Notes under the pieces: generated by a model | What the model was told of the DNA's origin: nothing | The model's input: only the letters and a program-made list of their open reading frames with translations | Databases searched by the model: none | Shown: positions 37,765-56,734 of the stretch, in pieces | Numbering within the stretch: the first letter of the stretch is position 1 | Layout of the letters: the number at the start of each line of letters is the position of its first letter | Source: the human T2T-CHM13v2.0 reference genome, Homo sapiens | Assembly (NCBI RefSeq): GCF_009914755.1 | Contig: NC_060925.1 | Length of the DNA: 64,000 bases | Direction: 5' to 3' (one strand) | Position numbers and translations under genes: made by a program

Positions 37765-37836
37765 CAGGAAAAAGGGTGTGGAGATCCAGGAATGGCAGAA
37801 TTTGCAAAGAATCCTGCAAAGATGTGTTGTAGTATT
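37765..37836 (-). CDS. RNF115: RNF115 exon 5 (ILQHIFAGFFANSAIPGSPHPFS)
   Basis: Acceptor TAACAG|, donor TG|GTAAGT; 72 nt; phase 2-2. Confidence 0.95.
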
Positions 37837-48025: not shown

Positions 48026-48207
48026 AAAAGAACGTATTATTTAGGTGGGACACCTTCTTAGAAGTAATGTACCCTACAAAGCGAATCAGAAACAGCTTAC
48101 TGCTAAAATCAAAGAGGCTTCCTTTATATAACCAGGAAGGAGACTAAACTACCAAGCTAAAGTGTAACAAAAAAACAAAAGAGTAAAGCACAATAAAATA
48201 AAAATGG

Positions 48208-48633
<426 letters not shown>

Positions 48634-48674
48634 CTAACAAGCATTAATATTTTACCGTCTTAAAAAAATATTTG

Positions 48675-50227
48675 GCCCTCCCCCTCCCCCTCCCCCTCTC
48701 CCTCTCCCCATGGTCTCCCTCTCCCTCTCTTTCCATGGTCTCCCTCTGATGCCGAGCCGAAGCTGGACTGTACTGCTGCCATCTCGGCTCACTGCAACCT
48801 CCCTGCCTGATTCTCCTGCCTCAGCCTGCCAAGTGCCTGCTATTGCAGGCGCGCGCCACCACGCCTGACTGGTTTTCGTATTTTTTTGGTGGAGACTGGG
48901 TTTCGCTGTGTTGGCCGGGCTGGTCTCCAGCTCCTAACCGCGAGTGATCCGCCAGCCTCGGCCTCCCGAGGTGCCGGGATTGCAGACGGAGTCTTGTTCA
49001 CTCAGTGCTCAATGTTGCCCAGGCTGGAGTGCAGTGGCTTGATCTCGGCTCGCTACAACCTCCACCTCCCAGCCGCCTGCCTTGGCCTCCTAAAGTGCTG
49101 AGATTGCAGCCTCTGCCTGGCCGACACCCCGTCTGGGAAGTGAGGAGCGTCTCTGCCCGGCCGCCATCCCATCTAGGAAGTGAGGAGCGTCTCTGCCGGC
49201 CGCCCATCGTCTGAGATGTGGGGAGCGCCTCGGCCCCACCGCCCTGTCTGGGATGTGAGGAGCGCCTCTGCCCGGCCGCGACCCCGTCTGGGAGGTGAGG
49301 AGCCCCTCCGCCCGGCAGCCGCCCCGTCTGAGAAGTGAGGAGCCCCTCCGCCCGGCAGCCGCCCCGTCTGAGAAGTGAGGATCCCCTCCGCCCGGCAGCC
49401 GCCCCGTCTGGGAAGTGAGGAGCCCCTCCACCCGGCAGCCGCCCCGTCTGGGAAGTGAGGAGCGTCTCTGCCCAGCAGCCACTCGGTCCGGGAGGGAGGT
49501 GGGGGGTCAGCCCCCGCCCGGCCAGCTGCCCCATCCAGGAGGGAGGTGGGGGCCAGCCCCCGCCCGGCCAGCCGCCCCATCCGGGAGGGAGATGGGGGGT
49601 GCCTCCGCCCGGCCAGCCGCCCCGTCCGGGAGGTGGGGGGTGCCTCTGCCCGGCCGCCCCTTCTGGGAAGTGATGAGCCCCTCTGCCCGGCCACCACCCC
49701 GTCTAGGAGGTGTACCCAACAGCTCATTGAGAACGGGCCATGATGACGATGGCGGTTTTGTGGAACAGAGAAGGGGGAAAGGTGGGGAAGGGATAGAGAA
49801 ATCGGATTGTTGTTGTGTCTGTGTAGAAAGAAGTAGACATGGGAGACTTCATTTTGTTCTGTACTAAGAAAAATTCTTCTGCCTTGGGATGCTGTTGATC
49901 TATGACCTTACCCCCAACCCTGTGCTCTCTGAAACATGTGCTGTGTCCACTCAGGGTTAAATGGATTAAGGGCGGTGCAAGATGTGCTTTGTTAAACAGA
50001 TGCTTGAAGGCAGCATGCTTGTTAAGAGTCATCACCACTCCCTAATCTCAAGTACCCAGGGACACAAACACTGTGGAAGGCCGCAGGGCCCTCTGCCTAG
50101 GAAAACCAGAGACCTTTGTTCACTTGCTTATCTGCTGACCTTCCCTCCACTATTGTCCTATGACCCTGCCAAATCCCCCTCTGCGAGAAACACCCAAGAA
50201 TGATCAATAAAAAAAAAAAAAATTAAA
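48675..50227 (+). mobile_element. SVA retrotransposon, full length
   Basis: CCCTCC/CCCTCT hexamers, Alu-like region, GC-rich VNTR, SINE-R, AATAAA and poly(A); TSD AAAAAAATATTTG / AAAAAATTATTTG at a TT/AAAA site. Confidence 0.96.
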
Positions 50228-50794
50228 AAAAAATTATTTGAAGTGAAATATGAGTAATTCCTTAGCATTTATCACAATCTGGATGGAATTTCTCTTAAAG
50301 ATCATGCAATTTCCTTGCTGATTCTATATGTACTAAACAACCATCTGATTGCTTTTGATTTCTTGATACTTGAGAAATTCAAAGACAAGAGTATGCTAAC
50401 AAACAAATGAGTTTTATAGTCACTGAAACAGAATACCCTGTTATAAATTTATAAATTAATCTGCTGGCACAGGTCAGATGCACTTAAAGTCAGATAAGAT
50501 GAGCTAGTCTATTCAAGACCTAATTAACTATCATTCAAAAGCTGCAGATTAGAGGATAAAGCACATACTTTAGGGACACTGAATAAATATTTGCAGAATG
50601 AATGAACAATGTGAGAGTTCCCTGTCTCTGTGTTAGTAAAAAAGTTTTACTCATGCCAATGAAAAAGTCAAAGAAAATGGACCTCATTTCAGGGAAACTT
50701 ATTAAGTTGGTGTGAGGAACACACTAATAATCCCACAAAGGCTAATCTCTGACATCTGATTTCTTAAATACAAATACAAAGTACTCTTTTTCTT

Positions 50795-52833
50795 TTTTTT
50801 TTTTTTAATTGATCATTCTTGGGTGTTTCTCGCAGAGGGAGATTTGGCAGGGTCATAGGACAATAGTGGAGGGAAGGTCAGCAGATAAGTGAACAAAGGT
50901 CTCTGGTTTTCCTAGGCAGAGGACCCTGCGGCCTTCCGCAGTGTTTGTGTCCCTGGGTACTTGAAATTAGGGAGTGGCGATGACTCTTAACAAGCATGCT
51001 GCCTTCAAGCATCTGTTTAACAAAGCACATCTTGCACCGCCCTTAATCCATTTAACCCTGAGTGGACACAGCACATGTTTCAGAGAGCACAGGGTTGGGG
51101 GTAAGGTCACAGATCAACAGGATCCTAAGGCAGAAGAATTTTTCTTAGTACAGAACAAAATGAAAAGTCTCCCATGTCTACCTCTTTCTACACAGACACG
51201 GCAACCATCTGATTTCTCAATCTTTTCCTCACCTTTCCCCGCTTTCTATTCCACAAAACCGCCATTGTCATCATGGCCTGTTCTCAATGAGCTGTTGAGT
51301 ACACCTCCCAGACGGGGTGGTGGCCGGGCAGAGGGGCTCCTCACTTCCCAGTAGGGGCGGCCGGGCAGAGGCGCCCCTCACCTCCCGGACGGGGCGGCTG
51401 GCCGGGCGGGGGGCTGACCCCCCCACCTCCCTCCCGGATGGGGCGGCTGGCCGGGCGGGGGGCTGACCCCCCCACCTCCCTCCCGGACGGGGCGGCTGTC
51501 CGGGCAGAGGGGCTCCTCACTTCCCAGTAGGGGCGGCCGGGCAGAGGCGCCCCTCACCTCCCGGACGGGGCGGCTGGCCGGGCGGGGGGCTGACCCCCCC
51601 ACCTCCCTCCCGGATGGGGCGGCTGGCCGGGCGGGGGGCTGACCCCCCCACCTCCCTCCCGGACGGGGCGGCTGTCCGGGCAGAGGGGCTCCTCACTTCC
51701 CAGTAGGGGCGGCCGGGCAGAGGCGCCCCTCACCTCCCGGACAGGGCGGCTGGCCGGGGGGGGCTGACCCCCCCACCTCCCTCCCGGTCGGGGTGGCTGG
51801 CCGGGCAGAGGGGCTCCTCACTTCCCAGTAGGGGTGGCCGGGCAGAGGCGCCCCTCACCTCCCGGACGGGGCGGCTGGCAGGGCAGGGGGCTGACCCCCC
51901 CACCTCCTTCCCGGACGGGGCGGCTGGCCCGGCAGAGGGGCTCCTCACTTCTCAGACGGGGCGGCTGCCGGGCGGAGGGGCTCCTCACCTCCCGGACGGG
52001 GTGGCTGCCGGGCGGAGACGCTCCTCACTTCCCAGACGGGGTGGCTGCCGGGCGGAGGGGCTCCTCACTTCTCAGACGGTGTGGCTGCCCGGCGGAGGAG
52101 CTTCTCACTTCTCAGGGCAGTTGCCAGGCAGAGGGTCTCCTCACTTCCCAGACGGGGCGGCCGGGCAGAGACGCTCCTCACATCCCAGACGGGGTGGCAG
52201 GGCAGAGGCGCTCCCCACATCTCAGATGATGGGCGGCCGGGCAGAGACGCTCCTCACTTCCTAGATGGGATGGCGGCCGGGCAGAGACGCTCCTCACTTT
52301 CCAGACTGGGCAGCCAGGCAGAGAGGCTCCTCACATCCCAGACGATGGGCGGCCAGGCAGAGACGCTCCTCACTTCCCAGAAGGGGTGGTGGCCGGGCAG
52401 AGGCTGCAATCTCGGCACTTTGGGGGGCCAAGGCAGGCGGCTGGGAGGTGGAGGTTGTAGCGAGCCGAGATCACGCCACTGCACTCCAGCCTGGGCACCA
52501 TTGAGCACTGAGTGAACGCAACTCCGTCTGCCATCCCGGCACCTCGGGAGGCCGAGGCTGGCGGATCACTCGCGGTTAGCAGCTGGAGACCAGCCCGGCC
52601 AACACAGCGAAACCCCGTCTCCACCATAAAAATACGAAAACCAGTCAGGCGTGGCGGCGCGCGCCCGCAATCGCAGGCACTCGGCAGGCTGAGGCAGGAG
52701 AATCAGGCAGGGAGGTTGCAGTGAGCCGAGATGGCAGCAGCACAGTCCAGCTTCGGCTCGGCATCAGAGAGAGACCATGGCAAGAGAGGGAGAGGGAGAC
52801 CGTGGGGAGAGGGAGAGGGAGAGGGAGAGGGAG
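50795..52833 (-). mobile_element. SVA retrotransposon, full length (insertion extends to 53126 via 5' transduction)
   Basis: Poly(T), SINE-R, VNTR, Alu-like region and (AGAGGG)n on +; TSD CAAAGTACTCTTTTTCTT at 50777-50794 and 53127-53144. Confidence 0.96.
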
Positions 52834-53126
52834 CCATTGTTTCATCTTACCCCTGAGAAACAAAGGCCCAGCGAGGTCAGACGCTTGCCCTTGGCCTGGG
52901 CCACACAGTGAGTGAAGGTCAGAGCCTAGGCGGGAAACCACCTCTTTCACGGCAAAGCCTTTGTTCTGGCCTCACTCCTCCACTTTCACTCTTCTCCGCT
53001 CAGATCCTGCCCATCCCCTGGGCTCACAGGAGATGCCCCTTGGAGGCCTCCAGGCCAGCGCCCACCCCTGTGGCTGTGGCATCCTCTCCAATGGCAGGCA
53101 CAGACCTGGACCCTGTTGGCGCCAGC
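52834..53126 (-). other. 5'-transduced sequence carried by the SVA (contains a MIR core fragment)
   Basis: GC-rich non-SVA DNA between the hexamers and the TSD. Confidence 0.85.
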
Positions 53127-53136
53127 CAAAGTACTC

Positions 53137-53424
<288 letters not shown>

Positions 53425-54329
53425 ATTAAATACAAAGTACTCTGTCTACAGTGAAACCCGTAGAATGAACAGGAATCTGAGATGCAGCCCATGGAAACCA
53501 TAAGTGGAATGCCCATATGCTCCTTCTCAAAGCAAGAGGACAAAACTGTTATCAGGAAGAAGCCATGCTAAAATTCAATCAATTTTTAAAAATGTATAAA
53601 ACATGAAATTGTACTTTCAAAACATACAGTGACATCATAATGACAATTACTGTAAAGTAACAACCATATGGAACAATCTAGGCAGGCCTGCTAGCTGGGT
53701 ATAGTAATAGGCCCCAAAGATATACTGTGTTTATTTATACTTCTATGAAAGAAAAGAGAAAAGAAACTGAATTAAAAACTTTCAAGTTCTATTTACTGAT
53801 ATACTGGTGCCTTGGAAGGAAAGTTTCTGAGAAAATTAGGGAAATGCTTAAATCTTTGGTTAAAAAATAAGTGAGAAGGCTACTTAATTTTAAATTTTTG
53901 ACTTATACTAAATAGTTATACTAAAATTTTTTAGTATAAGTGAACAGTTAAAAATCTCACCAAATACAAATACTTTGATTTTTGCACTATCCTGGCTCCA
54001 ATATTTAACTGCCTTTATACTCTTAGACAATTTACCTAAACTCTCTGTGCCTCAGTTTCTCCAGTAAAATGGAGATATTCACAATACCTTCTTCACATGG
54101 TTATAGTGAGGATTAAACAAATGAATACCTGTAAAGCATTTAGACTAGTTTCTGGCACATACTCTTAGCTATTATTACTATTAATTCATATGTTTTTTAT
54201 ACTTTTTAGAGACATAATTACAATTATCCACTTATTCAAAACAAACATGTTTAGTAGCCACTATAAAACCGATACTGCACTAGAAGCTGAGAATACAGAG
54301 ATAAATAAAACACTACCCTATACTATCAA

Positions 54330-56525: not shown

Positions 56526-56734
56526 CCTTCAATAGCTGGAGATCTGTCAGGACGAGAACTTCCTCGAGATCTGTATCTCCGACCCAATGGCAACCGTGGA
56601 GGTCTTGCTCCCCAGAAGTCAGTGTGAGTCTGGTGACCCCTTTCATTGGCTCTATTATCTTGGTCCAGTGGACTGCTACTTAGAAAGGGTCTAAAATCTT
56701 GAAAAAACATCGTGTGATCCAAATGGCCCCAAAG
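56526..56734 (-). CDS. RNF115: RNF115 exon 4 (LWGHLDHTMFFQDF...RSRGSSRPDRSPAIEG)
   Basis: Acceptor TACTAG|, donor GG|GTGAGT; 209 nt; ORF 56522..56722; upstream exons lie beyond the window. Confidence 0.95.

What the first reader, a model, noticed from the sequence alone, without database searches (positions are those of the whole stretch)
48675..52833. Two full-length SVAs in tail-to-tail inverted orientation about 540 bp apart in one intron
Seen: independent insertions with separate TSDs. Their SINE-R, VNTR and Alu-like parts are near reverse complements; the ORF track gives almost identical peptides for 49724..50038(-) and 50974..51354(+). SVAs are sparse, so such a close inverted pair is unusual. 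Inference: RNF115 pre-mRNA can fold into a roughly 1.5-kb GC-rich duplex (hyper-editing, altered splicing or elongation). The DNA is also a substrate for inversion or deletion and for KRAB-ZNF/H3K9me3 silencing.
Basis: partly seen in the sequence, partly recalled or inferred. Interest (0 to 1): 0.7.

Follow-up and report, generated by a model that had tools for sequence, protein, structure and literature searches.

The report
Inverted SVA retrotransposon pair in RNF115 intron
Two separately inserted SVA jumping-gene copies lie tail to tail in one RNF115 intron and could fold the pre-mRNA into a very long hairpin, but this is ordinary repeat biology with one published precedent and no effect shown.

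Summary
SVA1 (+, 48675-50221) and SVA2 (-, from 50795) are both full length, from hexamer to poly(A), and lie tail to tail. 537 bp of single-copy DNA separates their target-site duplications (TSDs), all within one RNF115 intron.

One correction: SVA2 does not end at 52833. Its perfect 18-bp TSD lies at 50777-50794 and 53127-53144. The insertion therefore carries 293 extra bases (52834-53126), copied from chr20 (288 of 292 identical). No SVA is present at that chr20 site in this assembly.

The arms are 94.6% (hexamer plus Alu-like) and 95.7% (SINE-R) identical. Each has closer relatives elsewhere in the genome (97-98%), so these are two insertions, not an inverted duplication.

Folding the RNF115-sense strand predicts 1474 inter-arm base pairs at -3843 kcal/mol. 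With one SVA flipped, the prediction is 35 pairs at -1901.5 kcal/mol.

About 0.2-1 such pair is expected per genome by chance. An inverted SVA pair forming an intronic hairpin has been proposed at ASIP. Editing, splicing effects, instability and insertion age could not be tested here. I rate this a new member of a known kind, of modest interest.

The parts
48660..48674 (+). SVA1 upstream target-site duplication (degenerate)
   Evidence: TTAAAAAAATATTTG against TTAAAAAAAAATTATTTG at 50222-50239, read. The copies differ by 3 inserted bases in A and T runs. The sequence is low in complexity, so this TSD is probable rather than certain.
48675..50221 (+). SVA1, full length, antisense to RNF115: extra G plus hexamer 48675-48729, Alu-like 48730-49108, VNTR 49109-49712, SINE-R 49713-50210, AATAAA and A13 to 50221
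   Evidence: hexamer period 6 x 9.2; VNTR period 40 x 14.9. In one search the SINE-R draws 2260 first-look candidates in the genome; 40 were scored and the best non-self hit is 97%.
50222..50239 (+). SVA1 downstream target-site duplication
50240..50776 (.). Single-copy AT-rich spacer between the two insertions (537 bp; 32% GC and no CpG measured over 50233-50794)
   Evidence: the only genome match is itself. Composition.
50777..50794 (-). SVA2 target-site duplication, poly(A) side
   Evidence: the exact 18-mer CAAAGTACTCTTTTTCTT occurs only here and at 53127-53144 in the 64-kb window.
50795..52833 (-). SVA2 canonical body, sense to RNF115: A12 (50795-50806), ATTAAA signal (reverse complement of 50804-50809), SINE-R 50810-51303, VNTR 51304-52404, Alu-like 52405-52783, hexamer 52784-52833
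   Evidence: VNTR periods 37-49, with a 176-bp higher-order unit x 2.9 at 96%. In one search there are 1927 first-look candidates; 40 were scored and the best non-self hit is 98%.
52834..53126 (-). 293-bp non-SVA 5' extension of SVA2 (5' transduction or template-switch chimera), copied from G000:C20:65468037-65468328
   Evidence: It lies inside the TSDs. One search finds 2 places in the genome, itself and chr20. 288 of 292 aligned positions are identical. It is not masked as repeat in the hub table.
53127..53144 (-). SVA2 target-site duplication, 5' side, at the T-rich tail of an antisense Alu
48207..48520 (+). Flanking Alu, inverted partner of the Alu at 53145-53445; extends the predicted hairpin
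   Evidence: I8 169 nt at 80%, I15 102 nt at 86%. predicts 255 Alu-Alu pairs outside the SVA stem.
53145..53445 (-). Flanking Alu whose tail was the target site of SVA2

Best explanation
Shown: these are two independent LINE-1-type retrotranspositions of full-length SVA elements into the same RNF115 intron (the intron between exons 56526-56734 and 37765-37836, gene on the minus strand). SVA1 is antisense to the gene and SVA2 is sense. SVA2's RNA carried 293 nt from a chr20 site beside a stathmin-family gene's CpG island. No SVA sits at that site in this assembly. The 293 nt most likely come from read-through transcription that started upstream of a donor SVA which never reached fixation. Predicted: in the pre-mRNA, SVA2 is transcribed first and SVA1 about 0.55 kb later. 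The arms can zip into a hairpin of about 1.47 kb (SINE-R 476 pairs, VNTR 570, Alu-like 366, hexamer 46), which a flanking inverted Alu pair extends by about 255 pairs. Inferred: that duplex is bound and A-to-I edited by ADAR1 like inverted Alu pairs, then removed with the intron. At the DNA level both copies are heterochromatinised by ZNF91, like other SVAs. The net effect on RNF115 output is small, so the pair is a near-neutral accident of two insertions.
For: Domain order, hexamers, VNTRs and poly(A) tails come. The 293-bp piece has one other genomic copy, on chr20, with 4 differences in 292 columns. The chr20 sequence runs straight on without an SVA, and Pfam stathmin exons lie 10-12 kb away on the minus strand. 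Arm identities are 94.6% and 95.7%. Neither arm appears among the other's 40 scored best hits, which are 96-98% identical. In the tree each arm sits among its own relatives, with end branches of 0.020 and 0.018. The spacer is single copy. The fold has MFE -3843 kcal/mol with 1474 inter-arm pairs and a longest helix of 182 bp (6 helices of 50 bp or more), against -1901.5 kcal/mol and 35 pairs with SVA1 flipped. Flanking Alus add 255 pairs. 5' transductions are common: 1389 of 7554 polymorphic SVA insertions (PMC10681720 passages). ZNF91/H3K9me3 over SVAs is reported in the PMC11479940 abstract. Editing of inverted Alu duplexes is described in PMC11485995 passages.
Against: No expression, editing, chromatin or population data could be consulted, so every functional step is inference. 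A minimum-free-energy fold ignores co-transcriptional folding, helicases such as DHX9, bound proteins, and the strong self-structure of the GC-rich VNTRs (161 SVA2 self-pairs even in the MFE). The donor SVA on chr20 is absent, so read-through transduction is not proven. SVA1's TSD is degenerate and low in complexity. Named subfamilies were not assigned. Ages are poorly bounded: the transduced piece gives 6.8-13.7 My with a 95% range of 1.9-35 My. The SINE-R end branches would imply implausibly old ages, so they must include inherited or non-clock changes.
Confidence: 0.8

Rival explanations
1. ASIP-type functional pair. The sense-oriented SVA2 brings an ATTAAA poly(A) signal and possible splice sites into the RNF115 intron. 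Pairing with the antisense SVA1 hides them and so preserves full-length RNF115 mRNA. Under this reading one insertion buffered or compensated for the other.
For: Same layout as ASIP: two SVAs in opposite orientation in one intron, with a hairpin proposed to block a splice acceptor and early polyadenylation in the fixed SVA (PMC11319198 passages). SVA2 is sense to RNF115 and keeps an ATTAAA hexamer before its A-tail. The predicted stem covers the whole SINE-R and tail region. The arms here are much closer together (0.54 kb against 3.9 kb at ASIP).
Against: There is no evidence that SVA2's signals are ever used. The hub annotation lists no RNF115 transcript ending or spliced in this intron. Many sense intronic SVAs are tolerated without a partner. 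The order of insertion is unresolved: CpG decay is 9 vs 3 in favour of SVA1 being older, p = 0.15.
Confidence: 0.12
2. The 293-bp piece was joined to the SVA cDNA by reverse-transcriptase template switching from the 5' end of the SVA RNA onto an unrelated chr20 transcript. It is then not read-through from a donor SVA on chr20. This rival concerns only that sub-step.
For: No SVA is present at the chr20 junction in this assembly. The join falls exactly at the 5' end of a complete hexamer region, with one extra G that chr20 does not template. This is the only copy with that piece.
Against: 5' transduction is frequent for SVAs. Donor elements that never fixed are an ordinary explanation. The last 14 nt of the piece (AAGATGAAACAATG, preceded by T) look like a usable LINE-1 endonuclease target and TSD of a lost donor; this is my reading. 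The extra G fits the capped 5' end of the donor's own insertion.
Confidence: 0.15
3. The pair is a DNA-level fragile or rearranging site. The inverted arms would drive inversion of the spacer, hairpin-mediated deletion, or arm-to-arm gene conversion, making the locus structurally polymorphic.
For: The inverted arms are 1.5-2 kb long and 537 bp apart. One SINE-R CpG carries the same T in both arms where the relatives have C.
Against: The arms differ by about 5%, and the longest perfect tract is 131 bp, the next 60 bp. The spacer is long for hairpin extrusion. From recall (Lobachev et al. 2000), instability of inverted Alus in yeast falls steeply with spacer length and divergence. Both copies are intact and have diverged about 2% from their nearest relatives, so the arrangement has persisted. 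The shared change is a single CpG site, where parallel decay is expected.
Confidence: 0.08
4. The two arms arose by inverted duplication of a single SVA (a palindromic rearrangement) rather than by two insertions.
For: Only the mirror symmetry itself.
Against: Each copy has its own TSD. Only SVA2 has the chr20 piece. The VNTRs are 604 and 1101 bp. Each arm is closer to copies on other chromosomes (97-98%) than to its partner (94-96%). Lineage markers differ: SVA1's 2-bp deletion is shared with 62 other places and is absent from SVA2.
Confidence: 0.01

Closest known systems
ASIP intronic SVA F / SVA F1 pair (PMC11319198; passages read)
   Same: Two SVAs in opposite orientation in one intron. 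An RNA hairpin between them is proposed to alter RNA processing.
   Different: At ASIP the copies are 3.9 kb apart, one is a polymorphic human-specific F1 without hexamer or Alu-like parts, and there are expression, splicing and trait data. Here the copies are 0.54 kb apart, both are full length, both are diverged about 2% from their nearest relatives, and there are no functional data.
Inverted-repeat Alu (IRAlu) duplexes in introns and 3' UTRs (PMC11485995 passages; PMC13019027 abstract in the listing)
   Same: Oppositely oriented retroelement copies in one transcript that pair into dsRNA, the usual ADAR1 substrate.
   Different: The predicted stem is about 1.47 kb, against about 0.3 kb for Alus. 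It is GC-rich (61-66% GC) and its middle third is a VNTR that can pair in many registers. An ordinary inverted Alu pair also flanks it.
SVA 5' transductions and transduction groups, e.g. the MAST2-derived SVA_F1 and a chr17 source with 65 offspring (PMC10681720 passages)
   Same: Non-SVA sequence from the donor's upstream flank is carried inside the TSDs.
   Different: This is a singleton, the only copy with this piece. Its donor SVA is absent from this assembly. The hexamer and Alu-like parts are intact, so the piece was not spliced in as in SVA_F1.
TAF1 intron 32 SVA of X-linked dystonia parkinsonism (PMC11479940 abstract)
   Same: An intronic SVA under ZNF91/H3K9me3 control that can disturb the host gene's RNA (intron retention).
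   Different: That is a single recent pathogenic insertion. No disease link or expression effect is known for the RNF115 pair.

Membership tests
SVA retrotransposon, full-length canonical copy (both elements) | 5' (CCCTCT)n hexamer array | tested here: met
   period 6 x 9.2 at 48676-48729, and x 8.5 at 52784-52833 on the opposite strand.
SVA retrotransposon, full-length canonical copy (both elements) | Alu-like region, GC-rich VNTR, SINE-R, in that order (order as described in PMC11485995) | tested here: met
   The SINE-R parts match thousands of first-look candidates genome-wide at 96-98% among the 40 scored. No labelled repeat library (Dfam/RepeatMasker) was available, so the domain names rest on the published description and my recall.
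SVA retrotransposon, full-length canonical copy (both elements) | Poly(A) signal and A-tail, with TSDs at an A/T-rich LINE-1 endonuclease-type target | tested here: met
   SVA2 has a perfect 18-bp TSD, ATTAAA plus A12, and target TTTC/AAGA. SVA1 has a degenerate ~15-18-bp TSD, AATAAA plus A13, and target CTT/AAAA.
Named SVA subfamily (A-F) | Diagnostic positions of the subfamily consensus | not testable with these tools
   No labelled consensus was available. Indirect evidence: the nearest copies are 97-98% identical and the end branches are 0.018-0.020, which does not suit very recent copies. SVA1 shares a 2-bp deletion with 62 other places and an AAGGG variant with 10.
SVA 5' transduction | Unique non-SVA sequence between the 5' TSD and the hexamer, with a single donor locus elsewhere | tested here: met
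SVA 5' transduction | Donor SVA directly downstream of the donor sequence (corroborating, not defining: donors may be unfixed or lost) | tested here: not met
   chr20 continues without an SVA in this single haplotype assembly, so template switching stays open.
Inverted-repeat dsRNA / ADAR substrate | Two copies in opposite orientation within one transcription unit, with a thermodynamically favoured duplex | tested here: met
   Both lie in one RNF115 intron (hub table)..
Inverted-repeat dsRNA / ADAR substrate | Clustered A-to-I editing observed in RNA | not testable with these tools
   No RNA data were available. The literature search for RNF115 + A-to-I + ADAR found 7 papers and listed 6. I read passages of only one (PMC13349986), which does not concern this intron; the other five I judged unrelated from their titles and abstract starts alone.
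ASIP-type splice/polyadenylation-masking SVA pair | Aberrant splicing or early polyadenylation in one SVA that the partner suppresses | not testable with these tools
   Only the layout is shared.

The most novel reading that the evidence does not exclude
The pair is a fixed, self-neutralising arrangement. The sense SVA2 would truncate or mis-splice RNF115 transcripts through its ATTAAA signal and internal splice sites. The antisense SVA1, 0.54 kb downstream in the RNA, sequesters it in a ~1.5-kb edited duplex. RNF115 output would then depend on ADAR1 and helicase activity. That would tie a ligase reported to degrade MAVS (PMC13349986 passage) to the cell's dsRNA-handling state.
Probability: 0.07. 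Interest if true: 0.6.

Novelty: new member of a known kind. Interest (0 to 1): 0.3.

Why it matters
If the hairpin forms, it would be one of the longer constitutive intronic dsRNA structures made by retroelements. It would also be a natural second test case, after ASIP, for whether inverted SVA pairs change host-gene RNA processing. The locus lies in the 1q21.1 region, where structural variation is clinically relevant (recalled, not checked here), so a check for inversion or deletion alleles is cheap and worthwhile. The singleton 5' extension also records a chr20 donor SVA that no longer exists in this haplotype. None of this changes current understanding: SVAs, 5' transductions and inverted-repeat duplexes are all well described.

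Tried and rejected
1. Inverted duplication origin: rejected.
2. Segmental-duplication copy or paralogous empty site: the spacer is single copy, so no empty-site comparison was possible.
3. Transduction family: rejected, since only this copy and the chr20 original exist.
4. Spliced 5' exon capture as in SVA_F1: rejected. The hexamer is intact, and chr20 has ATGCCC, not GT, after the join.
5. Subfamily naming: not possible without a labelled library. Lineage-marker counts and a tree of the 58 nearest copies gave only weakly resolved placement (1 of 57 inner branches starred).
6. Dating: the SINE-R end branches (0.018-0.020) are 3 times the median of their relatives. Those relatives were picked as best hits, so they are biased toward low divergence. 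The transduced piece gives a wide range. The relative order of insertion from CpG decay, 9 vs 3, is not significant.
7. Literature on this exact locus. RNF115 + SVA found 5 papers, all about the 'sva' software package. SVA + transduction + STMN3 found 5 unrelated papers. RNF115 + A-to-I + ADAR found 7 papers, 6 listed; I read passages of one only (PMC13349986), which does not concern the intron, and judged the other five unrelated from their titles and abstract starts alone. SVA + hairpin + inverted + same intron found 2 papers, of which only ASIP is relevant. SVA + hyper-edit + ADAR found 1 paper, on L1.
8. Supplements searched for RNF115: PMC12593883 (2 files), PMC11479940 (6 files) and PMC3667099 (3 files), with 0 occurrences in each. 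The first lists non-reference insertions only, so it says nothing about these reference copies. The PDF supplement of PMC10681720 was listed but not read.
Full report
**What is there.**
Reading window 48100-53300 shows two complete SVA retrotransposons.
- SVA1 lies on the + strand. It starts with an extra G and a (CCCTCT)n array at 48675-48729. An Alu-like region follows to 49108, then a VNTR at 49109-49712, SINE-R at 49713-50210, AATAAA and an A13 tail ending at 50221.
- SVA2 lies on the - strand. In + coordinates it has a T12 run at 50795-50806, SINE-R to 51303, a VNTR at 51304-52404, the Alu-like region to 52783 and (AGAGGG)n at 52784-52833.
- Tandem Repeats Finder reports both hexamer arrays (period 6, 9.2 and 8.5 copies) and both VNTRs. 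It also reports a 176-bp higher-order unit repeated 2.9 times at 96% in SVA2.
- A BLAST of SVA1's SINE-R and VNTR against the whole 64-kb window finds no further SVA pieces.
- By the hub's gene table both copies lie in the RNF115 intron between exons 56526-56734 and 37765-37836. RNF115 is on the minus strand, so SVA2 is sense and SVA1 antisense to the gene.

**Arms.**
- The repeat finder gives inverted arms of 484 nt at 94% (hexamer plus Alu-like) and of 278 nt at 97% and 103 nt at 96% (SINE-R and tail). It also gives many VNTR registers at 76-92%.
- Global alignment gives 406/429 = 94.6% for hexamer plus Alu-like, and 468/489 = 95.7% for SINE-R with 14 gap columns.
- The longest perfectly identical tract is 131 bp (49903-50033 against 50979-51109); the next is 60 bp.
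They are mirror images of the antisense SINE-R, not evidence of genes.

**Target-site duplications and a correction to the coordinates.**
- SVA2's TSD is a perfect 18-mer, CAAAGTACTCTTTTTCTT, at 50777-50794 and 53127-53144. It occurs nowhere else in the window.
- The second copy lies 293 bp beyond the hexamer array, so 52834-53126 was inserted together with SVA2.
- That piece has exactly one other match in the 3.1-Gb assembly, G000:C20:65468037-65468328, with 4 differences in 292 aligned columns.
- At the chr20 site the sequence runs on without any SVA. The bases after the join are ATGCCC, so this is not a splice donor.
- The chr20 site lies just outside a CpG-rich block. Pfam stathmin-domain exons lie at C20:65456451-65458278 on the minus strand. 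By recall this is STMN3, and an ATG followed by MASTIS in L002 fits its first exon, but I did not verify the name.
- The ordinary reading is a 5' transduction: transcription began upstream of a donor SVA on chr20 that is not present in this haplotype. 5' transductions are frequent, at 1389 of 7554 polymorphic SVA insertions (PMC10681720, passages).
- Template switching of the reverse transcriptase onto a chr20 RNA cannot be excluded.
- SVA1's TSD is TTAAAAAAATATTTG (48660-48674) against TTAAAAAAAAATTATTTG (50222-50239). The copies differ by three inserted bases in homopolymer runs, so this TSD is probable but weaker.
- The DNA between the two inner TSD copies is 537 bp (50240-50776). It is AT-rich (32% GC, no CpG) and single copy in the genome.

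**Independent insertions, not a duplication.**
- Each SINE-R was searched against the genome. SVA1 drew 2260 first-look candidates and SVA2 drew 1927, with 40 scored each. The best non-self hits are 97% and 98%.
- Neither arm appears in the other's top 40, and the arms match each other at only 94.2% by BLAST.
- In a maximum-likelihood tree of the two arms plus 58 fetched relatives, each arm sits with its own set. Resolution is poor, with only 1 of 57 inner branches starred.
- End branches are 0.020 and 0.018, against a median of 0.0064. The relatives were chosen as best hits, so they are biased toward low divergence.
- SVA1 differs from its nearest copy by 12 substitutions and a 2-bp deletion. 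SVA2 differs from a zero-branch relative by 12 substitutions.
- SVA1's deletion is shared with 62 other places in the genome. Its AAGGG variant is shared with 10, while the exact 25-mer is unique.
- Together with the separate TSDs, the different VNTR lengths and the one-sided chr20 piece, this rules out an inverted duplication.

**Age.**
- The transduced piece gives 6.8-13.7 My for mutation rates of 1.0-0.5 x 10^-9 per site per year. The 95% Poisson range is 1.9-35 My.
- Read as a clock, the SINE-R end branches would exceed the age of the SVA family. They must therefore include changes inherited from unsampled sources, or changes that did not accumulate clock-like.
- CpG decay between the arms is 9 sites decayed in SVA1 against 3 in SVA2, p = 0.15. 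Together with its degenerate TSD, this is a weak hint that SVA1 is older.
- Whether either copy is human-specific is unresolved, because no ape sequence was available.

**RNA structure.**
- I folded the minus (RNF115-sense) strand of 48600-53200 with ViennaRNA. The MFE is -3843 kcal/mol.
- There are 1474 base pairs between the two SVAs: SINE-R 476, VNTR 570, Alu-like 366, hexamer 46 and tails 10 make up 1468, and 6 scattered pairs the rest.
- breaks these into 67 helices. The longest is 182 bp, 6 are 50 bp or more, 17 are 30 bp or more, and 31 pairs are G-U.
- With SVA1 reverse-complemented in place, the MFE is -1901.5 kcal/mol and 35 inter-SVA pairs remain.
- Extending the fold to 48150-53480 adds 255 pairs between an Alu(+) at about 48207-48520 and an Alu(-) at about 53145-53445.
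It is not evidence that the duplex forms in cells.

**How unusual.**
- PMC10681720 counts 5107 reference SVA annotations, of which 1927 are full length. About 4-6% of neighbouring annotations lie within 1 kb; the paper gives no orientation, and many may be fragments of a single copy (passages).
- Uniform placement of 1927 copies predicts 0.18 tail-to-tail pairs with a gap of 600 bp or less. The figure is 0.36-0.89 if SVAs occupy 20-50% of the genome.
- 0 of 58 other SVA loci fetched here hold a second SINE-R within +-1.5 kb.
- One such pair in a genome is about what chance gives.

**Comparison with what is known.**
- The nearest precedent is ASIP. [quoted passage not shown] It is proposed to form a hairpin that blocks a splice acceptor and early polyadenylation in the fixed copy (PMC11319198, passages; also cited in PMC13648404).
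- A full-text search for SVA + retrotransposon + hairpin + inverted + 'same intron' found 2 papers, of which only the ASIP paper is relevant.
- Inverted Alu duplexes and their editing are textbook material (PMC11485995 passages).
- None of my searches turned up anything about this RNF115 pair. For one search this rests on passages of one paper and on the titles and abstract starts of the other five listed. RNF115 did not occur in the supplements searched.

**Verdict.**
- The origin of the pair (two insertions, one with a 5' extension) is well supported.
- The hairpin is a sound prediction.
- Editing, splicing, elongation, instability and any fitness effect remain untested.
- My best estimate is a near-neutral pair.
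- An ASIP-like masking role, suggested by SVA2's sense orientation and ATTAAA signal, is the most interesting open alternative.

Noticed in passing
window 48207-48520 (+) and 53145-53445 (-): An ordinary inverted Alu pair brackets the SVA pair. It adds 255 predicted base pairs outside the SVA stem, giving a nested hairpin. SVA2 inserted into the T-rich tail of the right-hand Alu.
   Followed up: partly
L002 (G000:C20:65466537-65469828), positions 1501-1792: This is the donor of the 293-bp piece. No SVA is present there in this assembly. The site lies about 0.2 kb from a CpG-rich block, and an ATG encoding MASTIS on the opposite strand lies about 0.55 kb away. Pfam stathmin exons lie 10-12 kb further along on that strand. 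The gene name STMN3 is recalled, not checked.
   Followed up: partly
window 51304-51815: SVA2's VNTR contains a 176-bp higher-order unit repeated 2.9 times at 96%, which suggests a recent internal expansion. SVA2's VNTR is 1101 bp against 604 bp in SVA1.
   Followed up: no
window ~50021 (SVA1) and ~50991 (SVA2), SINE-R alignment columns 309/311: Both arms carry T at the same CpG where their nearest relatives have C. This is either parallel CpG decay or arm-to-arm gene conversion. It is a single site, so it is uninformative alone.
   Followed up: no
window 50810-51303 (SVA2 SINE-R): At 6 of the 12 substitutions against relative L034, SVA2 has A where the relative has G. Four of these are in a GG-to-AG context, which resembles an APOBEC3G-type footprint. 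The count is too small to test.
   Followed up: no
window 49765-49795 (SVA1 SINE-R): Five changes relative to the nearest copy fall within 30 nt, three of them A-to-G. The exact 25-mer is unique in the genome, and 10 other copies share part of it.
   Followed up: partly
window 50804-50809 (minus strand): SVA2's poly(A) signal reads ATTAAA instead of the AATAAA seen in SVA1. It lies in sense orientation inside the RNF115 intron.
   Followed up: no
literature (PMC13349986 passage): RNF115 is described there as a ubiquitin ligase that lowers MAVS, the adaptor of dsRNA sensing. The same gene hosts a very long predicted intronic dsRNA, which I regard as probably a coincidence.
   Followed up: no
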